Part shown: positions 4,141-48,567 of the stretch, piece after piece | How positions within the stretch are numbered: position 1 is the first letter of the stretch | How the letters are laid out: each line of letters starts with the position of its first letter | Source of the DNA: Thermodesulfobacteriota bacterium | Lineage (GTDB): Bacteria > Desulfobacterota_D > UBA1144 > Nemesobacterales > Nemesobacteraceae | Reading direction: 5' to 3' | Length of the DNA stretch: 64,000 nt | Assembly: GCA_965116075.1 (NCBI GenBank) | Contig: OZ220467.1 | Span: 1,857,067 to 1,921,066 of the forward strand | The notes under the pieces: generated by a model | What the model saw: the letters and a program-made list of their open reading frames with translations, nothing else | Told to the model about the DNA's origin: nothing | Database searches by the model: none | Program-made: the position numbers and the translations under genes

Positions 4141-4862
4141 TGAGTTCTGTGGTAATAAATCTCCGCGGAATCAGAAAAACCTACTCAAATGGGAAGGTAG
4201 ATGTTGAAGCGCTTCGCGGCATAAATCTTGAGGTCCGAAAGGGAGAGTTTGTGGCGGTAATGGGGTCTTCAGGTTCGGGTAAAAGTACGCTTATGAACAT
4301 CTTGGGATGTCTTGACGTACAGAGCCAAGGAACATATCTACTTGATGGAATTGACGTAAATAGCCTCAAAAGCGACCAAAAGGCAGAGATAAGAAGCGCA
4401 AAGATAGGGTTTGTGTTTCAGAGTTTTAACCTGCTTGCGAGAACAACGGCGATTGAAAACGTAGAACTTCCGCTTGTATACTGCGGAATCAAGGCTCGAA
4501 AGAGAAGAGAACTGGCTTTAAGTGCGCTTACACTGGTGGGGCTTGACGATAGAATTGACCATATGCCAAGCCAACTCTCAGGAGGGCAACAACAAAGAGT
4601 AGCAATAGCAAGATCTGTCGTGAATGACCCGACAATAATACTCGCAGATGAGCCGACGGGTAATCTTGATACAGCAACTAGTTACGAGATAATGAAGATA
4701 TTTACGGATCTAAATGATCAGGGAAAAACTATTATCATGATAACCCACGAAGACGATATCGCCTCCCGCTCAAAAAGAGTAATAAAGATAAAAGATGGGC
4801 AAATTTCCGAGGACAAAGAAAATCAGCGAACAAAAACAGATGGACTTAGTTCTACTCAATAA
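4140..4862 (+). CDS. ABC transporter ATP-binding protein (MacB/LolD-type ATPase, no fused permease)
   Basis: Walker [10 protein letters not shown], signature [14 protein letters not shown], Walker [13 protein letters not shown]. 240 aa, ATPase domain only. Confidence 0.85.
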
Positions 4863-8755: not shown

Positions 8756-9055
8756 GTGGAAAGTGCTGACTTCTACCAACTCAATTCGCACCGTTGGAAC
8801 AATTTTAACCCTGTAGCTCTCTACTCGGAAACAATTGACGATATTCAAACGCTTTTCGTTCTTGATGCGTATCACTCGGAAGTCTTTACTTACGACCTGA
8901 CTACTGACGACCGTGCTGGCGGTAGCTTCAGAATAGACAGTGTGGAAACAAGCGGGCATCAACGCTTTAGCGGTGTTACCTTAACCGCCGATGAAGACTA
9001 CTTCTATGTTTCTCATATCCAAAAAACGAGGCATTTGCGCTGTAGCGATTCTTGA
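8756..9055 (+). CDS. hypothetical ORF ending exactly at the MITE terminal repeat (possibly a truncated remnant)
   Basis: ORF only; its stop lies inside the MITE left TIR. Confidence 0.2.
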   Translation: MESADFYQLNSHRWNNFNPVALYSETIDDIQTLFVLDAYHSEVFTYDLTTDDRAGGSFRIDSVETSGHQRFSGVTLTADEDYFYVSHIQKTRHLRCSDS

Positions 9056-9501
9056 TGCAGGTTTCCTTTGATGATTGTGGAACCACTATGGGTTTATTTC
9101 TTTTGTAGATGGTGAATTTGTTATTAACTTGAGGTATTTACACTACAACGATTTTTGGGGCTATTTCCTTGAGGATGACCAGAAACAACATTAACTTGCT
9201 CTTATAGCAGAGGAGAAGATTCTGCTAGCAAATTATAATTTCAACCTATGAAGATACCTTTACAGTGACATTAAAAAATAAATAATATCATCAGGTTATT
9301 TGTTTTTTGGAGAATTTTTACAGAGGTTATATCAACCGATTTTAGTGTGGGGTGAAATTTCTGGGTTTTGGCTTACATTAGCCGATTTTAGGGCTTTTTG
9401 GGGGCTTTTTGCGGGGATTTCTGGGGTGAAAAGTTTTTTACCCCCCCCCCCCTCTAAAAATCCTTGATATGCATACATTTTTTGAACAGCGCAAATGCCT
9501 C
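9028..9501. mobile_element. MITE-like non-autonomous element (~474 bp) carrying both TIRs of the IS at 46583-48567
   Basis: Left end GAGGCATTTGCGCTGT (9028-9043); right end ACAGCGCAAATGCCTC (9486-9501), a perfect 16-bp inverted repeat. Interior 9300-9480 matches the IS right-end sequence (gtgaaattt..ggcttacattagccgattttaggg). Confidence 0.6.
9441..9452. repeat. homopolymeric C12 tract inside the MITE right-end module
   Basis: Twelve consecutive C. The master IS copy has only CCCC plus an interruption at the equivalent position (48508). Confidence 0.9.
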
Positions 9502-11633: not shown

Positions 11634-12176
11634 ATGAAGACTAATATTATCATCAAAAATATTTCTGACAGAAAAAAACGAGAGCATCTAAGGCGCTATA
11701 CGATGAAAAAAATTCATAAGATCCAAAGGTACATAGATCCTGAAAGAAACCCTTCGGAAGCGAAAATAATTCTTGCGGCAGAGAAACTTAGAAAAACCGC
11801 AGAGATAGCCGTCAACTCAGGACCACTCAAAGCGGTGGCATCTGTGGAAACCGATGAGATGCATTCAGCCATAGACAAACTTTTTGACACTATCGTAAAA
11901 CAGTTAAGAAGAAGAACAGACAAGCAGATATCTCTTCGAAGAAGAAGCCTAGTAAAAACTCCTTCTGCTACACATTCAGAAAGGAAAAGAAGAGGAAACA
12001 GCCTGACAATTGACCATGAGTTTCTCAATACAAAGCCTATGAGCGTGGCTGAGGCGTTATTACAGCTTGACACATCGGAGCAGGACTTTGTTGCTTTTAG
12101 AAATAGCGAAACACTTGAGATGAACGTGGTCTACAAAAAGGCTGACTCGAAAAAAGCAGGATTAGTGACTCCCTAA
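11634..12176 (+). CDS. hpf: ribosome hibernation promoting factor, long form
   Basis: Immediately downstream of rpoN; C-terminal domain KPMSVAEALLQLDTSEQDFVAFRNSETLEMNVVYKK is typical of long HPF. Confidence 0.8.
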   Translation: MKTNIIIKNISDRKKREHLRRYTMKKIHKIQRYIDPERNPSEAKIILAAEKLRKTAEIAVNSGPLKAVASVETDEMHSAIDKLFDTIVKQLRRRTDKQISLRRRSLVKTPSATHSERKRRGNSLTIDHEFLNTKPMSVAEALLQLDTSEQDFVAFRNSETLEMNVVYKKADSKKAGLVTP

Positions 12177-19152: not shown

Positions 19153-19294
19153 TAGAGTTGTAATAAAAAGATAGAGTGTACCAGAAAATTTTTTTTTGTG
19201 AACTTCTGGATAAAAACGAGTGCCGAATAATACAGATAATTTGACCAGAGATATTTAGCGGCAGTGACCGTGAATGGATTATTGCGTCCAAAGG

Positions 19295-19461
19295 CTGATA
19301 ATTGTGCGGAAATCAGCAGCGAATTGCGAAAATCAAGAAATCTGACCATCAGATTACTTAAACACCAATCAGCCCGAACTGAAACAGTGGTGAACATGTG
19401 TTTATAGGTCCTCATTACGTTAAAGCCGCTCCCCAAAAAACCCTACAGCGCAAATGCTTCC
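19295..19461. repeat. solo left-end (LE-A) copy of the IS at 46583, reverse orientation
   Basis: Reverse complement aligns along its length with 46583-46760 and 43054-43217, including the TIR (ACAGCGCAAATGC at 19445-19457). Confidence 0.6.
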
Positions 19462-19475
19462 TTTGTCGCTAGTCC

Positions 19476-19506
19476 TTGACTTATGTGAGGGGGGGGGGGG
19501 TAAAGT
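19476..19506 (+). promoter_or_regulatory. putative sigma-70 promoter with a G12 tract in the spacer: TTGACT, then 7 nt plus G12, then TAAAGT
   Basis: -35-like TTGACT at 19476-19481, -10-like TAAAGT at 19501-19506, 19-bp spacer containing the homopolymer. Roughly 95 nt upstream of the lipoprotein start codon. Confidence 0.45.
19489..19500. repeat. homopolymeric G12 tract
   Basis: Twelve consecutive G. Confidence 0.9.
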
Positions 19507-19601
19507 TAAAAGGCTAACTTAAGAATGAGGGTTTTATAACAAGGTTTTGCCAGATAAATATCCACTTTATAAATGGAACAACTTATAAGGGAGGTTTTAT
19601 T

Positions 19602-20759
19602 ATGAAGTTACGTAATTTATTAGTGATGTTGTTTCTGCTCACTGGAGCAGTTTTCTTTGTAGCTTGCGAGGGAAAAGACGGGAAAGACGGAGCGAGAGGG
19701 CCAGCAGGGCCAGCAGGTGAAAAGGGGGATAAGGGTGACAAAGGTGACAAAGGCGACCCCGGGCCAGCAGGCGCGGATGGCAGAGACCTAAACCCCACCG
19801 GTGATACTAGGTGTGATGTTAGTAATGGTATAGATGCCCCCACAGCAGTGCGAGAGATCGCAGGGACTATGGATGATGATGTTATTTGCGGAAATGATGG
19901 CGATAACGAAATAAGAGCGGGAGGGGGAGATGATACGGTTTACGGTGGAGATGGCAATGACAAGTTGTTAGGTGGAGATGGAGACGATACGCTTTATGGT
20001 GAAGATGGAAATGATCATTTTTTCTTTATAAATGAAGCCGGTGTTAATAAATTTGTTGGGGGTGCTGGTAAAGACCTAGTCTATTTTGCTCGTAATGTTG
20101 TAAACACAGGAACGTCTTCTGCAGGCATTTATAACAACCCTTCCGGTTCCCTAACTTCCAAAGATATAACCTTTGATCTCTCTTCTGGGAGTTGGGATGG
20201 GACTTCTATTGACACTGGATCATTCACTTTTGAAGGTATTGAGGATGTTATTAGCGGTGATGGTGACGACACTATTACCGGAAATGACGAATCTAACTAT
20301 CTCTATACATGGGATGGTGATGACACTATAAACGGCGGAGCTGGCAACGATTTGATTAATGGTGTGGGTGGTGACGATACGATAGACGGTGGTGCCGGCG
20401 ATGATATTTTAGTCGCATGGGATAATGGCAATGATACTCTTACTGGAGGCGCAGGCGCAGATATTTTTTATGCTCGATATGCGTCATCCCCTGACCTTGT
20501 AGTTATTAAGGATTTTGATACGGCAAACGACAAACTCTATTTCAGAAGTTTTCCAGCAGTATCAGGGAATAATAGAACCGTAACCGCCTCGGGAGGTAAG
20601 ATTTTGGTTGGAGGGAATGAATATTTTGAAATACATGATGCGAACGGTTCACCAGACAGCACAAAAGCAACAAATATTGCAGGCGACTCAACAAGATATC
20701 GGTTTGTAGCACATGAATTTTCAGGGGAAACAAGATTCTACACATTTACAGACGACTAA
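19602..20759 (+). CDS. lipoprotein with collagen-like GXY triple-helix repeats and RTX (hemolysin-type) calcium-binding repeats
   Basis: Signal peptide with lipobox-like FVAC; about 12 GXY triplets (GKDGKDGARGPAGPAGEKGDKGDKGDKGDPGPAGADG); repeated GGxGxD nonapeptides (GGDGNDKLLGGDGDDTLYGEDGND...). Confidence 0.75.
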   Translation: MKLRNLLVMLFLLTGAVFFVACEGKDGKDGARGPAGPAGEKGDKGDKGDKGDPGPAGADGRDLNPTGDTRCDVSNGIDAPTAVREIAGTMDDDVICGNDGDNEIRAGGGDDTVYGGDGNDKLLGGDGDDTLYGEDGNDHFFFINEAGVNKFVGGAGKDLVYFARNVVNTGTSSAGIYNNPSGSLTSKDITFDLSSGSWDGTSIDTGSFTFEGIEDVISGDGDDTITGNDESNYLYTWDGDDTINGGAGNDLINGVGGDDTIDGGAGDDILVAWDNGNDTLTGGAGADIFYARYASSPDLVVIKDFDTANDKLYFRSFPAVSGNNRTVTASGGKILVGGNEYFEIHDANGSPDSTKATNIAGDSTRYRFVAHEFSGETRFYTFTDD

Positions 20760-20786
20760 AGAAAACAGATTTATAGCAACTCTCGG

Positions 20787-20820
20787 CCCTGCAGGTTATC
20801 CCCCTGCGGGGCTTTTTTTT
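20787..20820 (+). terminator. rho-independent terminator
   Basis: ccctgcagg ttatccc cctgcgggg stem-loop followed by a T8 run. Confidence 0.6.
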
Positions 20821-20857
20821 GATATACTGGCAATAACAATTCCAAGGAGGAAATACT

Positions 20858-21013
20858 ATGAGCCTAGCTGACAGACTTCAACAGTTAATAAAATCGCATG
20901 AGAGCAGGACAAGGGATTATGAGGGAAGAATTGAGAAAATGGAAAAGGATATAAGCAAGAATAGGTCTGGCATTGATGAATATCACTCATTCATTGAACG
21001 AGAGAAAGAGTAA
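20858..21013 (+). CDS. small ORF (51 aa) with strong RBS, predicted coiled-coil
   Basis: AAGGAGG seven nt upstream of the ATG; sequence MSLADRLQQLIKSHESRTRDYEGRIEKMEKDISKNRSGIDEYHSFIEREKE. Confidence 0.35.
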   Translation: MSLADRLQQLIKSHESRTRDYEGRIEKMEKDISKNRSGIDEYHSFIEREKE

Positions 21014-21152
21014 ATAAGCGTGATTAAGGAATTCCTATCGTTTGGCCCTGACTATTTGGAGACCCTTGCCTGTATTGTACATGGTGGATAAATCCACAAC
21101 TAAAAAACTTCCATTCCCAAAAAAAAACCGCCCAACAGACTACTCTTTTTAG

Positions 21153-21168
21153 ACAGCACAAATGCCTC
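21153..21168. repeat. solo degenerate copy of the IS terminal repeat (ACAGCACAAATGCCTC)
   Basis: 15 of 16 positions match the TIR. Confidence 0.4.
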
Positions 21169-39244: not shown

Positions 39245-39300
39245 TCCACACAAAAAAGCCCCACGATGACAAGCGTCACCGCAGGGCTTGAAATTGGTAT
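39245..39300 (-). terminator. probable rho-independent terminator for the minus-strand lipoprotein gene
   Basis: GC-rich imperfect hairpin (gccctgcggtgacgcttgtcatcgtggggc) followed by a T6 run on the minus strand. Confidence 0.4.
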
Positions 39301-39313
39301 AAATCTATTTTCT

Positions 39314-40474
39314 TTAGTTGTCTGTAAAAATGTAGGTTCTTGACGTTGCTGAGAAAGAAGCAGTAACAAACTTATATTTTGTTGGGTCGTTTGCAATACT
39401 AGTTGCTTTTGTGCTGTCTGGAGCACCATTAGCGTCGTGAAGCAGAAATGAATGGGTGTAAACACTAGGATCCCTCGCTACTATAATCTTGCCATTTTCA
39501 GCCCTTACTTCTCTCTCTCCACCGCCTTCTGTTGCTACGGGATAACCTATGGAATAGAGTTTGTCTTCTGTAAGGTTAAAGTCCTTGATAACATCCACCC
39601 CAGCATGGTAATGACGAGCAGTAAAGATGTCGGCACCTACTCTACCACGAAGAATATCATCTCCATCTCCACCGTTTATAATGTCAACACCATTACCGCC
39701 GACAAGGTGATCATCGCCAGCTTCGCCGTTTATAGTGTTACCACCATTTCCACCCCAAATATAGTTATCCCCGTTTGTTCCGGTCAGCATGTCATCGCCA
39801 TTACCACTATAAAAATCTTCAATATCTTCAAATATAACCTTGCCTAATTTCTCAAGAGGTTCAGAACCACCTTCAAAACTTCCAGAAGAAAGATCAAAAG
39901 TTATATTATTGTTGACTACGGAACCAGAATAAAAACCCGAAGAGGAGGCACGAGCCCCCTCTGCGGGTGCTTGCCTGAAATAAATTATGTCTTTATCCTC
40001 CCCACCGAACCACTTGTTCTCCCCTGACGCAGATAGAAGATAGAAATGATCTTGTCCATCTTCGCCGTAAAGCGTATCGTTATCATCTCCACCCATCAGC
40101 CTATCATTTCCCTTACCTGCATAAACAACATCATCACCAGCAAGCGTTCTTATATCATTGTCGCTATCATTTGCGCAGACGATATCGGCATCCTGTGTTC
40201 CTTCAATGCTTCTCATGCCAGGGAGTACATTTATCCCGTTACTCTTATCGCATCTCGGGTCGTTTTCAACGCCGTCGCCTTTGTCACCTTTATCGCCTTT
40301 CGCTCCGTCCTTTCCTGGATCACCTTTGTCCCCCTTTGGTCCCGCCGGTCCGCGTTCGCCTTGAGGCCCTTGCACTCCGTCTTTCCTCGCTGGCCCTCTC
40401 TCTCCCTCACAAGCTACAAAAAAAACTGCTCCAGTAAGCAGCAACAACATCACTAATAAACTACGTAACTTCAT
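39314..40474 (-). CDS. paralogous lipoprotein with collagen-like GXY repeats and RTX calcium-binding repeats
   Basis: N-terminus MKLRSLLVMLLLLTGAVFFVACEG, near-identical to the 19602 gene. GXY run (GERGPARKDGVQGPQGERGPAGPKGDKGDPGKDGAKGDKGDKGDG); GGxGxD repeats; shared C-terminal ...FTDN. Confidence 0.75.
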   Translation of the reverse strand: MKLRSLLVMLLLLTGAVFFVACEGERGPARKDGVQGPQGERGPAGPKGDKGDPGKDGAKGDKGDKGDGVENDPRCDKSNGINVLPGMRSIEGTQDADIVCANDSDNDIRTLAGDDVVYAGKGNDRLMGGDDNDTLYGEDGQDHFYLLSASGENKWFGGEDKDIIYFRQAPAEGARASSSGFYSGSVVNNNITFDLSSGSFEGGSEPLEKLGKVIFEDIEDFYSGNGDDMLTGTNGDNYIWGGNGGNTINGEAGDDHLVGGNGVDIINGGDGDDILRGRVGADIFTARHYHAGVDVIKDFNLTEDKLYSIGYPVATEGGGEREVRAENGKIIVARDPSVYTHSFLLHDANGAPDSTKATSIANDPTKYKFVTASFSATSRTYIFTDN

Positions 40475-40555
40475 ATTACAACCTCCCTTATAAGTTGTTC
40501 CATTTATCTGGCAAAACCTTGTTATAGAACCCTCATTCTTACAATTAGTCTTTTG

Positions 40556-40600
40556 ATTTTACCCCCCCCCCCAGGGCTTTCTAATTTTTTAGAGGCGTAA
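40556..40600 (-). promoter_or_regulatory. putative promoter with a G11 tract (minus strand: TTAGAA, then 6 nt plus G11, then TAAAAT)
   Basis: The minus-strand sequence downstream of the G tract is ~85% identical to the 19501-19601 5'UTR of the paralogous gene. Confidence 0.4.
40562..40572. repeat. homopolymeric C11 tract (G11 on the gene strand)
   Basis: Eleven consecutive C. Confidence 0.9.
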
Positions 40601-40899
40601 GTCGTTGATATTACCGAGTATATCCTTTCAAAGAGAGTTTTGCATCTTAGAGGTTGCCACTACGTCATGGAGAGAAATTAGAGACTCATTTGTCTTCCCT
40701 TTCTAGCTGACATGTAGAAGAATTAGGCTCGGTTTCAGTCCTTCGTAAGTTTTTTCTTATAACAAACACTTCTGAATTATAATCTGCGGAGTTGGATATG
40801 TAGGGAGAATATATCCAAGGTAGTACATTGTCATTTGGGGATTTGAGAAAACAGTGAAGTAATATTAGTACGTTATAATCCGGATATTCCAACAGAGAT

Positions 40900-43014
40900 A
40901 TTAAGTCACAATTCGGTTTCTTCGTTGTTAGATTTCGATCTGGACGTTACAAATTTAGTTCTGGCTATTTAATGTTTGTTATGGTATGGTGTAGATCATG
41001 AGTAGACAGATGTCTCAGGATAATAAGATTGATCTGCGCGCGATCACAGTACGTCCTACCTATGGGGAACAGGAGCGTCGTCACTGGGACCACTTAGTCA
41101 GACTACATCACTATCTTCCATTCCATCGCGTGTTCGGCAAGGGATTGCGTCATGTAGCGGAAGTTGGGTCGCGTTGGGTGGCGCTTATTGGTTGGCAGGC
41201 AGGCGCATTCAAGTTAGCGGCCCGAGACCGCTGGATTGGCTGGAGCGCCGAGCAGCAGTTTGGACGCTTGCATCTGATTGCCAACAATGTGCGGTTTGTC
41301 ATTCTGACACGGCAGCGGGTGGCGAACTTGGCATCCCGAGTGCTGGGTCTGAGTCTGAGGCGGCTGTCTTCGGACATGCAGACAGCGCACGGTTATCCAG
41401 TGTTTCTGGCTGAGACGTTCGTAGATATTTCACGTTTTAATGGTACTTGCTACCGGGCGGCCAACTGGCAGTCTTTCGGGCTAACGCGCGGGTTTGCCCG
41501 TGAGTCTGGAGGGTCTGCGCGGTGGCGCTATCATGGTCAACCCAAGGAGGTCTTCATGTTTAATCTCGTTGATAATGCTAAAGAAGTATTAAGTCAAGAA
41601 GAGTTACCACCAGAATGGACCGGTGGGGTTCGTAAGGAGCCTATGACGGCGCCACAGTTACGCAGTCTCAAAGATGTTCTAGGTAAGGTGCCTGAGTTCC
41701 GAAAGTCTCAAGGTAGACGCTATCCTCTTGTCACCGTGTTGGTTCTCGCTGTCGCCGCCCGTTTGGCTGGATACCGCGGGGTGTCCGCCATAGCGCAGTT
41801 CGCCCGACTACTTAGTCAGGAACAGCTTAAGGCCGTTGGAGCGTTCTACAGTCCCAGTAAGAAATGCTACACTGCGCCGGTAATTGCCACCTTCCATAAC
41901 ATCTTCGCAAAACTGCCACCCGACACGCTTGATAAAGCGCTGAACCTGTGGGAAGCCCGCAAGACCTCGCCCGCAGCGCCGGTGGCGATGGACAGCAAGA
42001 TGATTCGTGGCGCAGCCAAGCAGACTGAGGGTGGAATTAGAATGATGGTAGCTGCCCTCGAACATAACACCGGCGTGGTTCTCGGTCAACTAGCAATCAA
42101 AGAAAAGAGCAGTGAGATGCTAGTGGTACGCGACCTAGCCAATAAACTCGACATTGCTGATCGTACTGTCACTCTAGATGCGCTGCATGCCCAGCAGGAT
42201 ACGGCGCGCTGTCTGCTGGAAAATGGAGCCGACTATGTGATGACCGCCATCAAGAACAATCAAAGAAGGATCAGCAAGGAAATAAAGGGATTGGACTTTG
42301 ATGCTGTGCCAGGATGGACAACCGAAGATTATAAACATGGGAGGATTGAAGAACGGACCTGTTGGGTAGTAGACCTATCCGGTTCTGAGTGGGATGGACA
42401 TGTAGGCATGCACGGACGGCGTCAAGCCATACGCATAGTCCGCAAGCGCACTGAGAAGAAGACAGGTAAAACCAGTTGCGAGACTGTCTATGCTCTGACC
42501 TCACTTGGCCCAGAGCAGGCTGGAGCCAAGGAGTTACTTGCTCTGGTTCGCAACCACTGGCACATTGAGAACCGTCTGCATTATGTGCGTGACTTCACCT
42601 ACGATGAAGACCGTTGTCGGGTATCAAAAGGGTACTTACCGGAAAATCTTTCCTGTCTGAGCAACGTTGTCATCGCCATAGTGCGTTGTGAAGGTAGATT
42701 CAACTATCTGCCTGAAGCTAACCGACACTATGCCGCCCGGCCTCAGGAAGCTATTGAACTTATAATGAAGCCGTTGAACTGAACGGTCGCACTTTACTCA
42801 CAACCCCGCCGGATAGCCTGTGCACTGCTCAGGTCTGATACCCTACGCCTACTGGACGGACAAAGGCTGCGTACACTGTAAGATGAAGCCGAATGTACCC
42901 TTGTTTCTTGCTAAAACTCTCCATCTGAAGTCCAAATCACAATCCAAACACTCCAAAACATCTATCTACCCAACCCTATACAAAGTCCCCGCTACGAAAA
43001 CTGAATGGTCCTGA
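40900..43014 (+). mobile_element. ISAs1-family insertion sequence (approximate boundaries)
   Basis: Contains the ISAs1-type transposase ORF; its right boundary is placed where the conserved lipoprotein-promoter remnant (G10 at 43015) begins. Confidence 0.5.
40998..42782 (+). CDS. ISAs1-family transposase with an N-terminal Arg-rich extension (594 aa)
   Basis: C-terminal NHWHIENRLHYVRDFTYDEDRCRV signature of ISAs1 (H-repeat-associated) transposases; DDE core upstream. Confidence 0.8.
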   Translation: MSRQMSQDNKIDLRAITVRPTYGEQERRHWDHLVRLHHYLPFHRVFGKGLRHVAEVGSRWVALIGWQAGAFKLAARDRWIGWSAEQQFGRLHLIANNVRFVILTRQRVANLASRVLGLSLRRLSSDMQTAHGYPVFLAETFVDISRFNGTCYRAANWQSFGLTRGFARESGGSARWRYHGQPKEVFMFNLVDNAKEVLSQEELPPEWTGGVRKEPMTAPQLRSLKDVLGKVPEFRKSQGRRYPLVTVLVLAVAARLAGYRGVSAIAQFARLLSQEQLKAVGAFYSPSKKCYTAPVIATFHNIFAKLPPDTLDKALNLWEARKTSPAAPVAMDSKMIRGAAKQTEGGIRMMVAALEHNTGVVLGQLAIKEKSSEMLVVRDLANKLDIADRTVTLDALHAQQDTARCLLENGADYVMTAIKNNQRRISKEIKGLDFDAVPGWTTEDYKHGRIEERTCWVVDLSGSEWDGHVGMHGRRQAIRIVRKRTEKKTGKTSCETVYALTSLGPEQAGAKELLALVRNHWHIENRLHYVRDFTYDEDRCRVSKGYLPENLSCLSNVVIAIVRCEGRFNYLPEANRHYAARPQEAIELIMKPLN

Positions 43015-43024
43015 CCCCCCCCCC
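43015..43024. repeat. homopolymeric C10 tract in an orphan copy of the lipoprotein promoter module
   Basis: Reverse complement ...ctttctcgctagttcttgactttgtgag-G10 matches 19461-19500 (ctttgtcgctagtccttgacttatgtgag-G12). Confidence 0.9.
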
Positions 43025-43053
43025 TCACAAAGTCAAGAACTAGCGAGAAAGAA

Positions 43054-43217
43054 GGCATTTGCGCTGTAGGGTTTTTGGGAGTGGTTTTAGACGAATGAGG
43101 ACGTATGAACGCATGTTCAACACTGTTTCAGTTCGTACTGATTCGTATTTGAGCAATCTGATGGGCAGATTTCTTGATTTTCCCGCAATTTCCTGCTGAT
43201 TTCCGCACAATTATCAG
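43054..43217. repeat. solo left-end (LE-A) copy of the IS at 46583, forward orientation
   Basis: GGCATTTGCGCTGTAGGGTTTTTGGGAGTGGTTTTAGACG...CAATTATCAG aligns throughout with 46585-46749. Confidence 0.55.
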
Positions 43218-46582: not shown

Positions 46583-48567
46583 GAGGCATTTGCGCTGTAA
46601 GGTTTTTGAGAGTGATTTTAGACGTAATGAGGTCATATGAACACATGTTCAGAACCGTTTCAGTTTGTACTGATTCGTATTTGAACAATCTGACGGTCAG
46701 ATTCCTTGATTTTCGCAGGATATGATGCTGATTTTCGCCCAATTATCAGCCTTTAGACGCAACTATACATTCACGGCCACTACCGCTAAATTCCTCTGGT
46801 CAAATTATCTGTAGTATTCGGAGAAAAACCCTATCCAGCCCGAGGAGCACACCCAGAAACAAGGGACCTCATCTTATCAGCCCTTCCAGCCTTTATGTGT
46901 CCAATGGCTAACGCCATCATCACACTCAACGCTAAGCCTGTACGAGCAGTCATTTTTGCCTTGCCTCTGATAAAATGCCTCTCTAACTTAAAACTATTGT
47001 CAACCCTTGAGTTTATACGTTCTATAGAATTCCTAAGCTTATACTCCCGCTCCCAAGTTACTGAACCATACGGAGTCGGGGTAAAAATACGAGGGTCCTT
47101 GTCCAAAGGAACTCGTATGGATAAGCCATATTCACTGTTCTTACGACCCGCATTTTTGTGACACTTCTCCCTGCCTACGCAATTCAGGTTATGCGCTGCC
47201 GCAGGACAACGAAACTTCAAAGTACCTCGCTCCTCTTCATATCCCCAACCCACCAACTTACTTTCTACCTTGGTTATAGGACAACGACACCAAACCTCGC
47301 CCTTCTCTGTGTAGAATATGTTGTTAATATCTTCTCTCAAAGGCCGCATAATCTTTTGCCCAGCAATATAGTTCTGATTCTCCAACTCCACCCTCCACAT
47401 CTCTCGGATACCAATTATAGGGTCAGTTCCATATTCGTTCCAAAACTTCTTCTTCAATGACTCACTGTCAAGACCCTTGTCTGCGCTGAAATATTCGCAT
47501 CGCTCCACCAACTCAGGGTTCTGCGCAAACAACTTGTCTATCATCCGATTCAACTCCTTATATTCTGATACAGATGCCTTTGTAAGACTCATCGCAACCG
47601 GTATCTCATACTTGGTATCGGCAATTACATGCAACTTGTAACCAAACCATCTCTTTACGCTTTTCCATGCCTTGCCTGTAGCAGAGTTAAACCCAGACGT
47701 AGTATGTACTCCCCAGTCCGCATCAGGATCGGATGTCTCTCCTGTCTTATTGCTCTTTCTCCCTGTGGAATTACTCTCTATAGACTTACCGTCATATCCT
47801 AGATGCTTCCCAAAATCCGGAAGCGATTCTCTCAACTCTCCTCCCATTCTATCCATCATTTTCGAAATCAGACCGTCGCGTTGCTCCAACTTCGCTACGT
47901 TTGATAGAAACCGAGAGAAATTGTGACTGCTAGGCGCCGTACTGTAGATAGGAAATTGTTTAACCACAACTTTAGGTCTCCCGCCGTTTTCATCCTGCTC
48001 AAGACTGTACTTGTCAATATGTTGTATGGGAATGGGACAGAATCCACATCTATTAAGTAGTTCAGAATTACGGTTCAGTTCCCGTATCAGTGATTCTATG
48101 GATTCGTGCTGAAACACTACGCCAGCAATCGTCGCCCTCCACATTGGTTCTACCGGATACTCATTACGCCCGTTCTTGCGCATAGCTTTCAAAGCCCTAA
48201 TGATATCTTCATCAGGCAAAGCATCCAAAACCAACTCAAGACGGTTGAGGTCTGAAATCTCATCAATTTGTTCCCAAGAGAATGGTAAATACTTTTTTTG
48301 TAGCAACTGTTTGCTCCTTATAGAGAGAATGTGTGAATGTTAGGAAGAATAATAACTGATATAGAATGTAAAGCAAGTAATATCAGCAAGTTATTTATCT
48401 CTTTCCCAAGTTTTTCAGGGAGAAATCGGCAACTGGTTTATGTGGGGTGAAATTTGTGGTTTTTGGCTTACATTAGCCGATTTTAGGGCTTTTTTGGGGT
48501 AAAAAGTTTTTTACCCCTTCTAAAAACCCTTGATATACATACATCTTTTGGACAGCGCAAATGCCTC
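46583..48567 (-). mobile_element. intact insertion sequence (~1985 bp) with perfect 16-bp TIRs and one DDE transposase ORF; master copy of the dispersed LE/RE repeats
   Basis: GAGGCATTTGCGCTGT at 46583-46598 and ACAGCGCAAATGCCTC at 48552-48567. LE interior matches the 43054 and 19295 copies; RE interior matches 9300-9501 and 31255-31400. Confidence 0.7.
46831..48306 (-). CDS. DDE transposase, IS4/IS5 superfamily (family unassigned)
   Basis: 491 aa. DDE region (GYKLHVIADTKYEIPVAM...) and C-terminal E(x6)R/K signature (SIERINSRVDNSFKLER) typical of the IS4/IS5 superfamily. Confidence 0.8.
   Translation of the reverse strand: MLQKKYLPFSWEQIDEISDLNRLELVLDALPDEDIIRALKAMRKNGRNEYPVEPMWRATIAGVVFQHESIESLIRELNRNSELLNRCGFCPIPIQHIDKYSLEQDENGGRPKVVVKQFPIYSTAPSSHNFSRFLSNVAKLEQRDGLISKMMDRMGGELRESLPDFGKHLGYDGKSIESNSTGRKSNKTGETSDPDADWGVHTTSGFNSATGKAWKSVKRWFGYKLHVIADTKYEIPVAMSLTKASVSEYKELNRMIDKLFAQNPELVERCEYFSADKGLDSESLKKKFWNEYGTDPIIGIREMWRVELENQNYIAGQKIMRPLREDINNIFYTEKGEVWCRCPITKVESKLVGWGYEEERGTLKFRCPAAAHNLNCVGREKCHKNAGRKNSEYGLSIRVPLDKDPRIFTPTPYGSVTWEREYKLRNSIERINSRVDNSFKLERHFIRGKAKMTARTGLALSVMMALAIGHIKAGRADKMRSLVSGCAPRAG

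What the first reader, a model, noticed from the sequence alone, without database searches (positions are those of the whole stretch)
40475..40600. Paralogous promoter and 5'UTR with a G11 tract upstream of the second collagen/RTX lipoprotein gene
The minus-strand sequence from the G11 tract to the ATG (taaaatcaaaagactaattgtaagaatgagggttctataacaaggttttgccagataaatggaacaacttataagggaggttgtaatatg) is about 85% identical to 19501-19604. The first ~24 codons are nearly identical (MKLRSLLVMLLLLTGAVFFVACEG versus MKLRNLLVMLFLLTGAVFFVACEG), while the protein bodies have diverged. A conserved 5' cassette (promoter, UTR, signal peptide) on diverged bodies is typical of contingency-locus families maintained by gene conversion. 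The ~95-nt conserved UTR may itself carry a regulatory RNA structure.
Basis: seen in the sequence. Interest (0 to 1): 0.7.

Follow-up and report, generated by a model that had tools for sequence, protein, structure and literature searches.

The report
Poly-G promoter switch split by IS
The G-run sits inside the promoter of one member of a family of at least 37 surface-lipoprotein genes that all share the same G-run promoter and leader, a classic design for random on/off switching of surface proteins, and at this copy a mobile element has landed inside the G-run and cut the promoter in two.

Summary
Genes A (19602-20759, +) and B (39314-40474, -) share a 5' cassette running from the G tract to codon 24. 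It is 92% identical apart from a 15-nt indel. The gene bodies are 49% identical in protein, with dS about 1.3.

In intact copies the G tract lies between an invariant -35 (TTGACT) and a -10 (TAnAnT). This is the promoter-spacer homopolymer design of known phase-variable genes.

At locus B the tract is split by a 2442-bp ISAs1-family insertion sequence (40572-43013). The "G11" is a 10-bp target duplication plus the IS's terminal base. The native -35 and a G10 half-tract lie 2.4 kb away (43015-43036).

The family is large: about 37 paralogs on the genome's 2.39-Mb contig and 29 in a sister genome. All 14 promoters I could read have the same layout.

Cassette identity (0.81-0.92) is uncoupled from body identity (0.50-0.78), which supports recombinational homogenisation.

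The 5'UTR shows no sign of RNA structure and is not conserved in the sister genome.

The same IS sits inside family G tracts in 4 of 6 copies examined.

Tract-length switching itself is inferred, because no read or expression data were available.

Verdict: a new member of a known kind.

The parts
40562..40571 (-). Gene-proximal half of the split poly-G tract (G10). It is the 10-bp target-site duplication. Base 40572 is the IS terminal base, which makes the run read as G11.
   Evidence: The IS ends and the 10-bp duplication were defined from copies at non-homopolymer sites (L086, L088).
40556..40561 (-). -10 hexamer TAAAAT of gene B, directly after the tract.
   Evidence: The same position holds TAAAGT, TAGAAT, TAAACT or TAGACT in the other 13 family promoters.
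40475..40555 (-). 5' leader of gene B, with Shine-Dalgarno GGGAGG at 40482-40487. It lacks the 15-nt palindrome-bearing segment present in A.
   Evidence: No structure signal was found.
40403..40474 (-). Codons 1-24: lipoprotein signal peptide MKLRSLLVMLLLLTGAVFFVAC|EG, forming the 3' end of the conserved cassette.
   Evidence: The N-terminus is near-invariant in 70 family proteins, with Cys at position 22 in 65 of 70.
39314..40474 (-). Gene B: a collagen-like (GXY) plus RTX beta-roll lipoprotein of 386 aa.
   Evidence: Pfam HemolysinCabind 2.1e-19, and Collagen 26.9 bits, just under the 27.2 cut-off. It is identical to database protein P0031.
39256..39289 (-). Terminator-like hairpin with a T-run after gene B, indicating a monocistronic unit.
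40572..43013 (+). ISAs1-family insertion sequence of 2442 bp. Its ends are CAGGGCTTTCTAATTTT... and ...AATGGTCCTG. The transposase gene is at 40998-42782 and carries an N-terminal DruA-like domain.
   Evidence: NCBIfam NF033564 at 198 bits (cut-off 70) and Pfam DruA, DDE_Tnp_1_assoc and DDE_Tnp_1. The ends and the 10-bp duplication come from five further copies.
40578..40584 (-). Candidate -35-like hexamer inside the IS end (TTAGAA 40579-40584, or TAGAAA 40578-40583). It lies 16-17 nt upstream of the -10 and could form a weak hybrid promoter.
   Evidence: The consensus scan lists TAGAAA-16-TAAAAT at 9 of 12 matches. This is inference only.
43015..43024 (-). Distal half of the split poly-G tract (G10). 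Base 43014 is a non-G base between it and the IS end.
43031..43036 (-). Native -35 hexamer TTGACT of gene B, now 2.4 kb from its -10. The 6-nt flank ttgtga is at 43025-43030.
   Evidence: It aligns to the -35 of locus A, and removing the IS restores continuous homology.
43052..43217 (-). Right-end fragment of a second IS ('IS-X'). Its terminal inverted repeat at 43052-43069 lies 15 nt upstream of the -35.
   Evidence: It is 87% identical to the fragment upstream of A.
19476..19506 (+). Intact promoter of gene A: TTGACT (19476-19481), tatgtga, G12 (19489-19500), TAAAGT (19501-19506). The spacer is 19 nt.
19507..19601 (+). 5' leader of gene A. It includes the 15-nt segment 19554-19568 absent from B and the palindrome-like CCACTTTATAAATGG at 19562-19576.
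19602..20759 (+). Gene A, the paralog (385 aa), followed by a terminator-like hairpin at 20785-20813.
19223..19460 (+). IS-X right-end fragment upstream of promoter A, with the inverted repeat at 19443-19460.
46583..48567 (-). Full-length IS-X copy, the reference for the fragments above. Inverted repeats are GAGGCATTTGCGCTGT and the 6-bp duplication is AACACT.

Best explanation
The interval is the 5' control region of one member of a large family of collagen-like/RTX lipoprotein genes. Each family gene is a monocistronic unit driven by a sigma-70-type promoter. A G homopolymer fills most of the spacer between an invariant -35 (TTGACT) and a -10 (TAnAnT). Slipped-strand gain or loss of G residues would change the -35/-10 distance and switch transcription of each gene on or off independently. 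This is how promoter-spacer homopolymers work in Mycoplasma hyorhinis vlp, Treponema pallidum tp0126 and, from my own knowledge, Neisseria porA. The promoter, leader and signal-peptide segment is kept alike among paralogs by recombination or gene conversion while the mature parts diverge. At locus B a 2442-bp ISAs1-family element inserted inside the tract and duplicated 10 G residues. This moved the native -35 and half of the tract 2.4 kb away. Gene B therefore retains only the -10, leader and signal peptide behind a G run that abuts the IS end. It is probably silenced, or at best driven by a weak hybrid promoter. Shown here: the anatomy, the IS insertion, the family size, the cassette conservation, the dS contrast and the absence of RNA structure. 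Inferred: the hexamer assignments (no transcription-start data), tract-length switching and its effect on transcription, surface exposure of the proteins, and the expression state of B.
For: The two loci share the cassette well beyond chance. In locus A the layout is TTGACT-7 nt-G12-TAAAGT. Deleting 40572-43014 and one G-run from locus B restores continuous homology of about 380 nt to locus A, running from the IS-X fragment through the -35, tract, -10 and leader to codon 24. The insert encodes an ISAs1-family transposase (NF033564, 198 bits against a cut-off of 70). Five further copies define identical ends and a 10-bp target duplication (GGATCATACC; GATGAAAAGG). The search with protein A returned 36 cluster representatives on one 2,386,527-bp contig, one of them identical to B. 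It returned 29 on the 1.98-Mb sister genome OZ242002.1. The N-terminal 24 residues are near-invariant in 70 proteins. All 14 family promoters readable across three assemblies show TTGACT, 6-7 nt, G9-G23 and TAnAnT. In 210 kb of these genomes, 16 of 19 G/C runs of 8 or more are family promoter tracts. dS is 0.21 for codons 1-24 against 1.29 for the body. Mean pairwise identity over 10 loci is 0.91 for the -35 flank, 0.87 for the leader and 0.89 for codons 1-24, against 0.59 for the next 150 nt. Cassette and body similarities are incongruent: A-B is 0.92/0.54, L085-L089 is 0.91/0.50 and L081-L087 is 0.86/0.78. Tracts cut off from function vary from 10 to 19, showing that they slip. Published precedent for the mechanism: PMC7864442 (T. 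pallidum tp0126; 17-nt spacing optimal) and PMC2268961 (M. hyorhinis vlp, spacer indels).
Against: There are no reads, so tract-length heterogeneity within a population is unproven. There are no transcription-start or expression data. In the assemblies no intact promoter has the canonical 17-nt spacer: spacers are 19 or 18 nt in the window lineage and 15 nt in the sister genome. Tract length is oddly uniform, at G12 in 6 of 6 intact units whatever the flank length and G9 in 3 of 3 in the sister genome. A freely drifting contingency tract would not be expected to behave this way. Homopolymer lengths in long-read assemblies can be biased. No conversion tract with an identifiable donor was mapped. 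DNA-level evidence from the window's own genome is limited to two loci, because the other cassette sequences come from a closely related assembly (ERZ24894574).
Confidence: 0.7

Rival explanations
1. Selection without conversion. The promoter, leader and signal peptide are alike among paralogs only because each nucleotide is under purifying selection. The bodies diverged after old duplications, with no recombinational homogenisation.
For: The signal peptide is functionally constrained. The Shine-Dalgarno sequence and codons 1-13 are nearly identical in DNA even between the two genome lineages, so some nucleotide-level constraint exists.
Against: The leader tolerates a 15-nt deletion, a 5-nt insertion and other indels. 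It shows no structure. It is replaced by an unrelated leader of about 28-42 nt in the sister genome. Yet it stays 0.80-0.92 identical within the lineage while synonymous sites of the bodies are saturated. Cassette and body similarities are incongruent.
Confidence: 0.12
2. The G run is not a switch. It is a fixed promoter spacer element, a protein-binding or DNA-shape element, or merely a preferred IS target. Its length is held constant rather than varied.
For: All six intact units of the window lineage have G12 and all three in the sister genome have G9, regardless of a 6- or 7-nt flank. None gives a 17-nt spacer. The IS hits the tract repeatedly.
Against: Runs of 9-12 G are intrinsically unstable in all bacteria tested (general knowledge). 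Disabled tracts of the same family range from 10 to 19, so slippage does occur here. The position between conserved hexamers matches that of proven switches (PMC7864442, PMC2268961). A consensus assembly reports only the modal length.
Confidence: 0.15
3. The conserved leader is a structured cis-regulatory RNA (riboswitch, thermometer or attenuator). That structure, rather than shared ancestry of the cassette, explains its conservation.
For: The leader is about 80-95 nt long and 0.87 identical among 10 loci. It has a short palindrome (CCATTTATAAATGG) and a 7-bp helix that could occlude the Shine-Dalgarno region. A terminator-like hairpin lies in the signal-peptide codons.
Against: Folding energies are no better than shuffles (z -0.19, +0.35, -0.85, +0.99, +0.12). 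The consensus structure is -7.2 kcal/mol with a covariation term of -0.03, and the Shine-Dalgarno helix never varies. No Rfam family matches at the gathering threshold anywhere in the window except two tRNAs. The palindrome is deleted in B and absent from the sister genome.
Confidence: 0.05
4. A and B are a very recent duplication of a whole gene.
For: The 5' ends are near-identical.
Against: Body dS is 1.29, dN is 0.41 and protein identity is 49%, whereas codons 1-24 have dS 0.21.
Confidence: 0.02

Closest known systems
Mycoplasma hyorhinis Vlp variable lipoprotein system (Citti & Wise 1995, as cited in PMC2268961)
   Same: Both are multigene families of lipoproteins. Each gene has its own promoter with a homopolymer in the -35/-10 spacer. 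Both have a highly conserved promoter, leader and signal-peptide region, a divergent and repetitive mature region, and independent on/off potential per gene.
   Different: The tract is poly-G, not poly-A. The host is a diderm Thermodesulfobacteriota, not a mollicute. There are about 37 genes scattered among housekeeping genes rather than a single cluster of about 3-8. The mature part is a collagen-like stalk plus an RTX beta-roll. Switching has not been demonstrated here.
Treponema pallidum poly-G promoters (tp0126; tprE/G/J; tprL) (PMC7864442 and references 15, 16 therein)
   Same: In both, poly-G tracts lie inside promoters of paralogous surface-protein genes. In tp0126 the tract lies between the -35 and -10, and 17-nt spacing is the permissive state.
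   Different: The T. pallidum tracts are 7-12 G on about a dozen tpr genes without a shared leader and signal-peptide cassette of this kind. In T. pallidum, length heterogeneity and reporter effects were measured. Here they were not.
Neisseria meningitidis porA/opc/fetA promoter homopolymers (own knowledge; genus context in PMC5084427, PMC5953494)
   Same: G or C homopolymers in the promoter spacer modulate transcription of outer-membrane proteins.
   Different: These are single genes, not a family sharing a cassette, and they give graded rather than strictly on/off output.
ISAs1-family insertion sequences (NCBIfam NF033564)
   Same: The transposase matches the family model far above its cut-off. 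The element has imperfect terminal inverted repeats beginning CAGG and a 10-bp target duplication.
   Different: The element is 2.44 kb and its 594-aa transposase carries an N-terminal DruA-like (PF14236) domain. Four of six copies examined sit inside the poly-G tract of one promoter family. I found no report of such a target preference.

Membership tests
Promoter-spacer simple-sequence-repeat phase variation (contingency locus) | A hypermutable repeat, meaning a homopolymer of roughly 8 or more. | tested here: met
   G12 at A. G10 plus G10 (read as G11) at B. G9-G14 in 12 other promoters.
Promoter-spacer simple-sequence-repeat phase variation (contingency locus) | The repeat lies between the -35 and -10 hexamers of the promoter that drives the gene. 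| tested here: inconclusive
   TTGACT is invariant in the 14 family promoters read, and the 13 gene-proximal ends read show TAnAnT right after the tract. These are the only elements conserved in all three assemblies upstream of the Shine-Dalgarno sequence. The hexamers are predicted and no transcription start has been mapped.
Promoter-spacer simple-sequence-repeat phase variation (contingency locus) | Repeat length varies within and between populations. | tested here: inconclusive
   Length differs between lineages (12 against 9) and among disabled tracts (10-19). Intact tracts are uniform within a lineage. No reads were available.
Promoter-spacer simple-sequence-repeat phase variation (contingency locus) | Expression switches with repeat length. 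| not testable with these tools
   This needs RNA-seq, 5'-RACE or reporter fusions.
Variable surface lipoprotein multigene family with a shared 5' cassette (Vlp-like) | Many paralogs in one genome. | tested here: met
   36 cluster representatives plus gene A on the 2.39-Mb contig, and 29 in OZ242002.1.
Variable surface lipoprotein multigene family with a shared 5' cassette (Vlp-like) | Conserved promoter, leader and signal peptide with a divergent mature part. | tested here: met
   Identity is 0.87-0.91 in the cassette against 0.59 just downstream. dS is 0.21 against 1.29.
Variable surface lipoprotein multigene family with a shared 5' cassette (Vlp-like) | Lipoprotein signal peptide with a lipobox cysteine. 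| tested here: met
   The sequence is ...AVFFVAC|EG, with Cys at position 22 in 65 of 70 proteins. This rests on sequence only, with no dedicated predictor.
Variable surface lipoprotein multigene family with a shared 5' cassette (Vlp-like) | Surface exposure and antigenic or phase variation observed. | not testable with these tools
   The organism is uncultured and there are no protein data.
ISAs1 family insertion sequence | Transposase matches the family model above its cut-off. | tested here: met
   NF033564 at 198 bits against a cut-off of 70. Pfam DDE_Tnp_1_assoc and DDE_Tnp_1 also match.
ISAs1 family insertion sequence | Defined ends with terminal inverted repeats and a target-site duplication, present in several copies. 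| tested here: met
   Six copies of 2442-2444 bp. The ends are CAGGGCTTTCTAATTTT and CAGGACCATTCAGTTTT, matching at 11 of 17. 10-bp duplications are seen at L086 and L088.
Structured cis-regulatory 5'UTR RNA (riboswitch, thermometer or leader) | Match to a known RNA family. | tested here: not met
   An Rfam gathering-threshold scan of the whole window found two tRNAs only.
Structured cis-regulatory 5'UTR RNA (riboswitch, thermometer or leader) | Stability beyond shuffled controls and covarying base pairs. | tested here: not met
   z-scores range from -0.85 to +0.99. The covariation term is -0.03 kcal/mol over 8 sequences.

The most novel reading that the evidence does not exclude
The ISAs1-family element homes to the poly-G tracts of this promoter family. 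Four of six copies examined lie wholly inside such tracts, always in the same orientation. At least three of these are recent independent hits, judged from IS copies identical to copies at unrelated sites. Each insertion is flanked by two G-runs, so slippage or recombination between the runs could remove the IS and rebuild a working tract. That would give a second, slower IS-based on/off layer on top of the homopolymer switch. The two insertions whose tracts look unexpanded reconstruct to G11 with a 6-nt flank, the only 17-nt (optimal) spacers seen. This would fit targeting or selection of promoters that were ON.
Probability: 0.3. Interest if true: 0.8.

Novelty: new member of a known kind. 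Interest (0 to 1): 0.62.

Why it matters
Homopolymer-controlled surface-protein families are known almost only from host-restricted pathogens such as Mycoplasma, Neisseria, Treponema, Campylobacter and Helicobacter. Here the same logic appears in uncultured Thermodesulfobacteriota with roughly 2-Mb, IS-rich genomes. I suspect these are animal-associated symbionts, but that is inference only. The scale is unusual: about 37 independently switchable collagen-like/RTX lipoprotein genes, roughly 2% of the genome. If the tracts do switch, each cell could display a different subset of a large coat repertoire. That is a concrete, testable hypothesis for how such bacteria handle host recognition or phage pressure. 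The existing long reads could test it without cultivation. The repeated landing of one IS inside the tracts would be a new kind of IS target choice, and a new way for mobile elements to interact with contingency loci.

Tried and rejected
Look-ups and scans that returned nothing:
- Exact-sequence contig look-ups for B, P0031, the window transposase and HemB were all 'not on record'. I could therefore not read the other approximately 35 promoters of the window's own genome, nor an orthologous locus in another strain.
- A JGI metagenome scan for the Shine-Dalgarno/start cassette found nothing.
- Literature searches for an IS targeting homopolymers, or for this protein family in Desulfobacterota symbionts, found nothing relevant.

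Ideas considered and rejected:
- The promoter is carried by the IS-X element. Rejected because seven other IS-X-type repeat ends in the window have unrelated flanks, and L084b has the promoter without the repeat.
- A second promoter lies inside the leader. TTGCCA and TATAAA are only 14-15 nt apart, and the scan found nothing on that strand.
- The leader encodes a peptide. The mini-ORF ATGAGGGTTTTATAA (MRVL) is not conserved and has no Shine-Dalgarno sequence.
- Gene A is cargo of a composite transposon. The flanking IS-X repeats at 19443-19460 and 21151-21168 are in direct orientation, not inverted.
- The 2.4-kb insert has long terminal inverted repeats detectable within the window alone. None were found by the repeat finder. 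The ends only became clear from other copies.

Not done: I did not predict the protein structure. The PDB sequence search only confirms RTX beta-roll blocks similar to CyaA.

Full report
**1. Observation**

On the minus strand, 40572-40562 is G11. It is followed by TAAAAT, a leader, GGGAGG and ATG at 40474. The plus-strand counterpart is G12 at 19489-19500, then TAAAGT, a leader and ATG at 19602.

From the -10 to the ATG the two loci share 79 of 86 aligned bases. They differ by one 15-nt and one 1-nt indel. Codons 1-24 differ at two residues.

The proteins are 385 and 386 aa. Both match HemolysinCabind (RTX). The collagen-repeat match is at Pfam's threshold: 27.5 bits for A and 26.9 for B, against a cut-off of 27.2. 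Both contain CyaA-like beta-roll blocks. They are only 49% identical.

A 34-nt cassette pattern occurs twice against 0.00 expected. The window holds just four G/C runs of 8 or more: 9441-9452, 19489-19500, 40562-40572 and 43015-43024. Shuffles predict fewer than one hit.

**2. Anatomy of the intact copy (locus A)**

Upstream of the tract lies TTGACT (19476-19481), then the 7 nt tatgtga, then G12, then TAAAGT. The homopolymer therefore fills the spacer between a near-consensus -35 and a -10 of the form TAnAnT. The spacer is 19 nt.

The consensus scanner accepts only 16-18 nt and does not list this promoter. With G9-G11 it would meet the scanner's own criteria (9 of 12 matches). That last point is my inference.

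A terminator-like hairpin follows the gene at 20785-20813, so the unit is monocistronic.

**3. Locus B is the same promoter cut in two by an insertion sequence**

The homology between A and B seemed to start exactly at the tract. The sequence upstream of A (19295-19488) is instead homologous to 43217-43025 on the minus strand. That stretch ends in CGCTAGTTCTTGACTttgtga followed by G10.

Joining 43025-and-upstream to 40561-and-downstream through one G run gives uninterrupted homology to locus A over about 380 nt.

The 2.4 kb in between encodes a 594-aa protein. It matches the ISAs1-family transposase model (NF033564, 198 bits against a cut-off of 70) and has an N-terminal DruA-like domain.

Five more copies from a closely related assembly (ENA ERZ24894574) fix the element at 2444 bp. 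Its ends are CAGGGCTTTCTAATTTT... and ...AATGGTCCTG. At two non-homopolymer sites it made 10-bp target duplications: GGATCATACC, and GATGAAAAGG inside a traU gene.

In the window the IS is 40572-43013. The last 29 nt of the reported interval are IS DNA.

The native -35 (43031-43036) is now 2.4 kb from its -10. The IS end offers only a weak -35-like TTAGAA/TAGAAA 16-17 nt upstream of the -10.

**4. The family**

A search with protein A returned 36 cluster representatives whose longest contig is one 2,386,527-bp contig. One of them (P0031) is identical to B. It returned 29 on the 1,980,752-bp chromosome OZ242002.1, labelled a Thermodesulfobacteriota MAG. Eleven more came from ERZ24894574 contigs.

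Seventy of the 77 proteins begin with MKL[RH][NS][LF]LVML.LL.GAV[FL]F[VA]AC-EG.

Median pairwise identity is 55% within the window's genome, 53% within OZ242002.1 and 46% between them. Every OZ protein has an OZ nearest neighbour.

The genes are scattered among housekeeping genes. They occupy different intergenic slots in a syntenic neighbourhood of two genomes (L084 against L091).

**5. The cassette at DNA level in relatives**

I could read 14 family promoters: 2 in the window, 9 in ERZ24894574 and 3 in OZ242002.1. Every one has TTGACT, a 6-7 nt flank and a G run. In the 13 whose gene-proximal side is held, TA[AG]A[ACG]T follows the run directly.

In 210 kb of sequence from these genomes, 16 of 19 G/C runs of 8 or more are such promoter tracts.

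Over ten aligned loci of the window lineage, mean pairwise identity by region is:

| Region | Mean pairwise identity |
|---|---|
| 21 nt ending with the -35 | 0.91 |
| Leader | 0.87 |
| Codons 1-24 | 0.89 |
| Next 150 nt | 0.59 |
| 100 nt further upstream | 0.56 |

The cassette thus runs from about 15 nt upstream of the -35 to the lipobox cysteine plus two codons.

**6. Homogenisation rather than recent duplication**

Between A and B, dS is 0.21 for codons 1-24 and 1.29 for the remaining 347 codons. dN is 0.04 and 0.41 respectively.

Cassette identity stays at 0.81-0.92 for all 45 pairs, while body identity ranges from 0.50 to 0.78. The two are incongruent. A and B have the most similar cassettes (0.92) and A's least similar body (0.54). 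L085/L089 are 0.91/0.50, and L081/L087 are 0.86/0.78.

The leader is unrelated and much shorter (about 28-42 nt) in the sister genome, yet alike among that genome's three copies.

These patterns fit recombination or gene conversion that keeps the 5' cassette uniform within a lineage. I did not map individual conversion tracts.

**7. The leader as an RNA**

Five leaders fold no better than dinucleotide shuffles, with z-scores of -0.19, +0.35, -0.85, +0.99 and +0.12.

The consensus fold of eight leaders is -7.2 kcal/mol with a covariation term of -0.03. Its one plausible helix (ACAACUU with GAGGUUGU, overlapping the Shine-Dalgarno region) has no compensatory (two-sided) change and so carries no covariation signal.

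Rfam finds only tRNA-Leu and tRNA-Cys in the window.

A short palindrome (CCATTTATAAATGG, imperfect in A at 19562-19576) is deleted from B by a 15-nt deletion between ATAAAT repeats. It is absent from the sister genome. The regulatory-RNA idea is not supported.

**8. Tract lengths**

| Class | Locus | Tract | Spacer |
|---|---|---|---|
| Intact, window lineage | A, L081, L084b, L085 | G12 | 19 nt |
| Intact, window lineage | L082, L083a | G12 | 18 nt |
| Intact, OZ242002.1 | L001, L002, L091 | G9 | 15 nt |
| Cut off by IS66 elements | L083:11755 | G14 | n/a |
| IS-split halves | window B | 10 and 11 | n/a |
| IS-split halves | L087 | 10 and 12 | n/a |
| IS-split halves | L090 | 13 and 13 | n/a |
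| IS-split halves | L089 | 14 and 19 | n/a |

Sources.

Subtracting the 10-bp duplication, the pre-insertion tract reconstructs to G11 at window B and at L087. With their 6-nt flank that gives a 17-nt spacer. The corresponding values are 15 at L090 and about 23 at L089.

So the tracts do change length. The uniform G12 and G9 of intact promoters, independent of flank length, are not what simple drift predicts. Three explanations remain open:
- selection on the modal length;
- co-conversion of the tract with the cassette;
- polishing bias in the assemblies.

Under the standard model every intact promoter would be sub-optimal (off or low) in the majority of cells. That is what one expects if each cell expresses few of many genes, but this is inference.

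**9. The IS and the tract**

Four of the six IS copies examined lie wholly inside family tracts: window B, L087, L089 and L090. In all four the transposase gene points away from the lipoprotein gene.

- L087's IS is identical over 2444 bp to the copy at an unrelated site (L086).
- The IS copies at L089 and L090 are identical to the copy in traU (L088).
- The two types differ at 19 positions, and the window copy differs from both at 49-50 positions.
- L089 and L090 differ in tract lengths, -35 flank and upstream element.

Several recent, independent insertions are therefore the simplest reading. Family tracts make up roughly 0.02% of the genome, so this cannot be chance. It reflects either target preference or, less likely, transfer of the IS by cassette recombination. 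I found no published precedent.

**10. Mechanism and rivals**

Best explanation (confidence 0.7): this is a promoter-spacer homopolymer switch on each member of a variable lipoprotein family. The 5' cassette is homogenised, and at B the promoter is disrupted by an IS.

Rivals:

| Rival | Confidence |
|---|---|
| Constraint without conversion | 0.12 |
| A G run of fixed length that is not a switch | 0.15 |
| A structured leader RNA | 0.05 |
| Recent whole-gene duplication | 0.02 (refuted) |

**11. Comparison with known systems**

[quoted passage not shown] It is a lipoprotein family with spacer-homopolymer promoters and a shared 5' region (PMC2268961, citing Citti and Wise 1995).

The closest in the nucleotide used is Treponema pallidum. 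In tp0126 the poly-G lies between the -35 and -10 and 17 nt is permissive. The tprE/G/J and tprL promoters also carry poly-G (PMC7864442).

This case differs in phylum, protein architecture (collagen-like stalk plus RTX beta-roll behind a lipobox), family size, dispersal around the genome and the IS association.

On the defining features: the repeat, the family, the cassette and the lipobox are met. The hexamer positions and length polymorphism are only partly testable here. Expression switching is untestable with these tools.

**12. Limits**

The other promoters of the window's own genome could not be fetched. The DNA-level generalisation therefore rests on a close relative that shares at least one identical family protein (P0027) and a 98%-identical IS. 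No reads, transcription starts or expression data were available.

Noticed in passing
window 46583-48567: A full-length second insertion sequence ('IS-X'). Its transposase (46831-48306, minus strand) resembles IS1182/IS5 models only below their cut-offs. The inverted repeats are GAGGCATTTGCGCTGT and the 6-bp duplication is AACACT. It is inserted just upstream of an IS630-like gene.
   Followed up: partly
window 19443-19460 and 43052-43069; L081, L082, L083, L085, L087, L089, L090 about 15 nt upstream of each -35: An IS-X-type terminal repeat abuts the promoter cassette at the same position in 9 of 10 loci. It comes with three different interiors: IS-X right end, a MITE, and an IS-X left-end-like remnant. 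L084b has none. Other copies of the repeat in the window have unrelated flanks. This may reflect site preference, or an old insertion followed by IS-IS recombination. It is unresolved.
   Followed up: partly
window 9028-9501: A 474-bp MITE bounded by the IS-X inverted repeats carries its own C12/G12 run at 9441-9452. The homologous spot in the full IS-X (about 48517-48530) has only GGGG. Copies of this MITE occur in L081, L082, L083, L085 and L089.
   Followed up: partly
window A; L081, L082, L083a, L084b, L085; L001, L002, L091: Intact promoters have exactly G12 in the window lineage (6 of 6) and G9 in OZ242002.1 (3 of 3), regardless of whether the flank is 6 or 7 nt. Disabled tracts range from 10 to 19. 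Tract length, rather than -35/-10 spacing, appears to be held constant.
   Followed up: partly
window 19635-19650 and 40425-40442: A terminator-like hairpin (CTGCTCACTGGAGCAG) followed by a T-run lies inside the signal-peptide codons of both genes. It is retained, partly through G-U pairs, in the other family members. It could be coincidence arising from conserved codons.
   Followed up: no
window 19587-19640 compared with L002 2985-3040: The Shine-Dalgarno region and codons 1-13 are almost identical in DNA between the window lineage and the sister genome (2 differences in 39 nt). The leaders are unrelated and codons 14-24 differ at many synonymous sites.
   Followed up: partly
window 19554-19576; absent from 40475-40555: Locus A carries a leader palindrome, CCA(C)TTTATAAATGG. 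It is a perfect 16-20-nt palindrome in L081 and L090. It is removed from B by a 15-nt deletion between ATAAAT direct repeats. It could be an operator or a weak hairpin.
   Followed up: partly
window 20760-21168: About 360 nt downstream of gene A are conserved with the 3' flanks of family units in L082 and L083. They end in an IS-X-like repeat at 21151-21168. In L083 the units follow each other as 3' flank, IS-X fragment, promoter, gene.
   Followed up: partly
L083 11727-16947: Another family promoter (G14 at 11755-11768) is separated from its gene (L083b, start 16948) by about 5 kb of IS66-type elements inserted in the leader. This is a second way in which IS elements disable these units.
   Followed up: partly
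L084 against L091: A syntenic block (HrcA-GrpE-DnaJ, Pyr_redox, LplA, TPR, EamA, M17, M20, CbiX, HAD) is shared by two genomes. The family gene sits in a different intergenic slot in each.
   Followed up: partly
L082 3624-4214; L083 3391-4284 and 14053-14946; window 40998-42782: DruA-like (PF14236) domains occur fused to the ISAs1-type transposase. They also occur as separate ORFs next to IS66-type transposases. The fused 594-600-aa architecture is widespread in metagenome proteins (858 hits at E<=1e-50).
   Followed up: no
L001 2725-2735: A further G11/C11 run lies inside a repeated ORF (2247-2816, similar to 4426-4728) flanking the family gene of the sister genome. It encodes a proline run. 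Its role is unknown.
   Followed up: no
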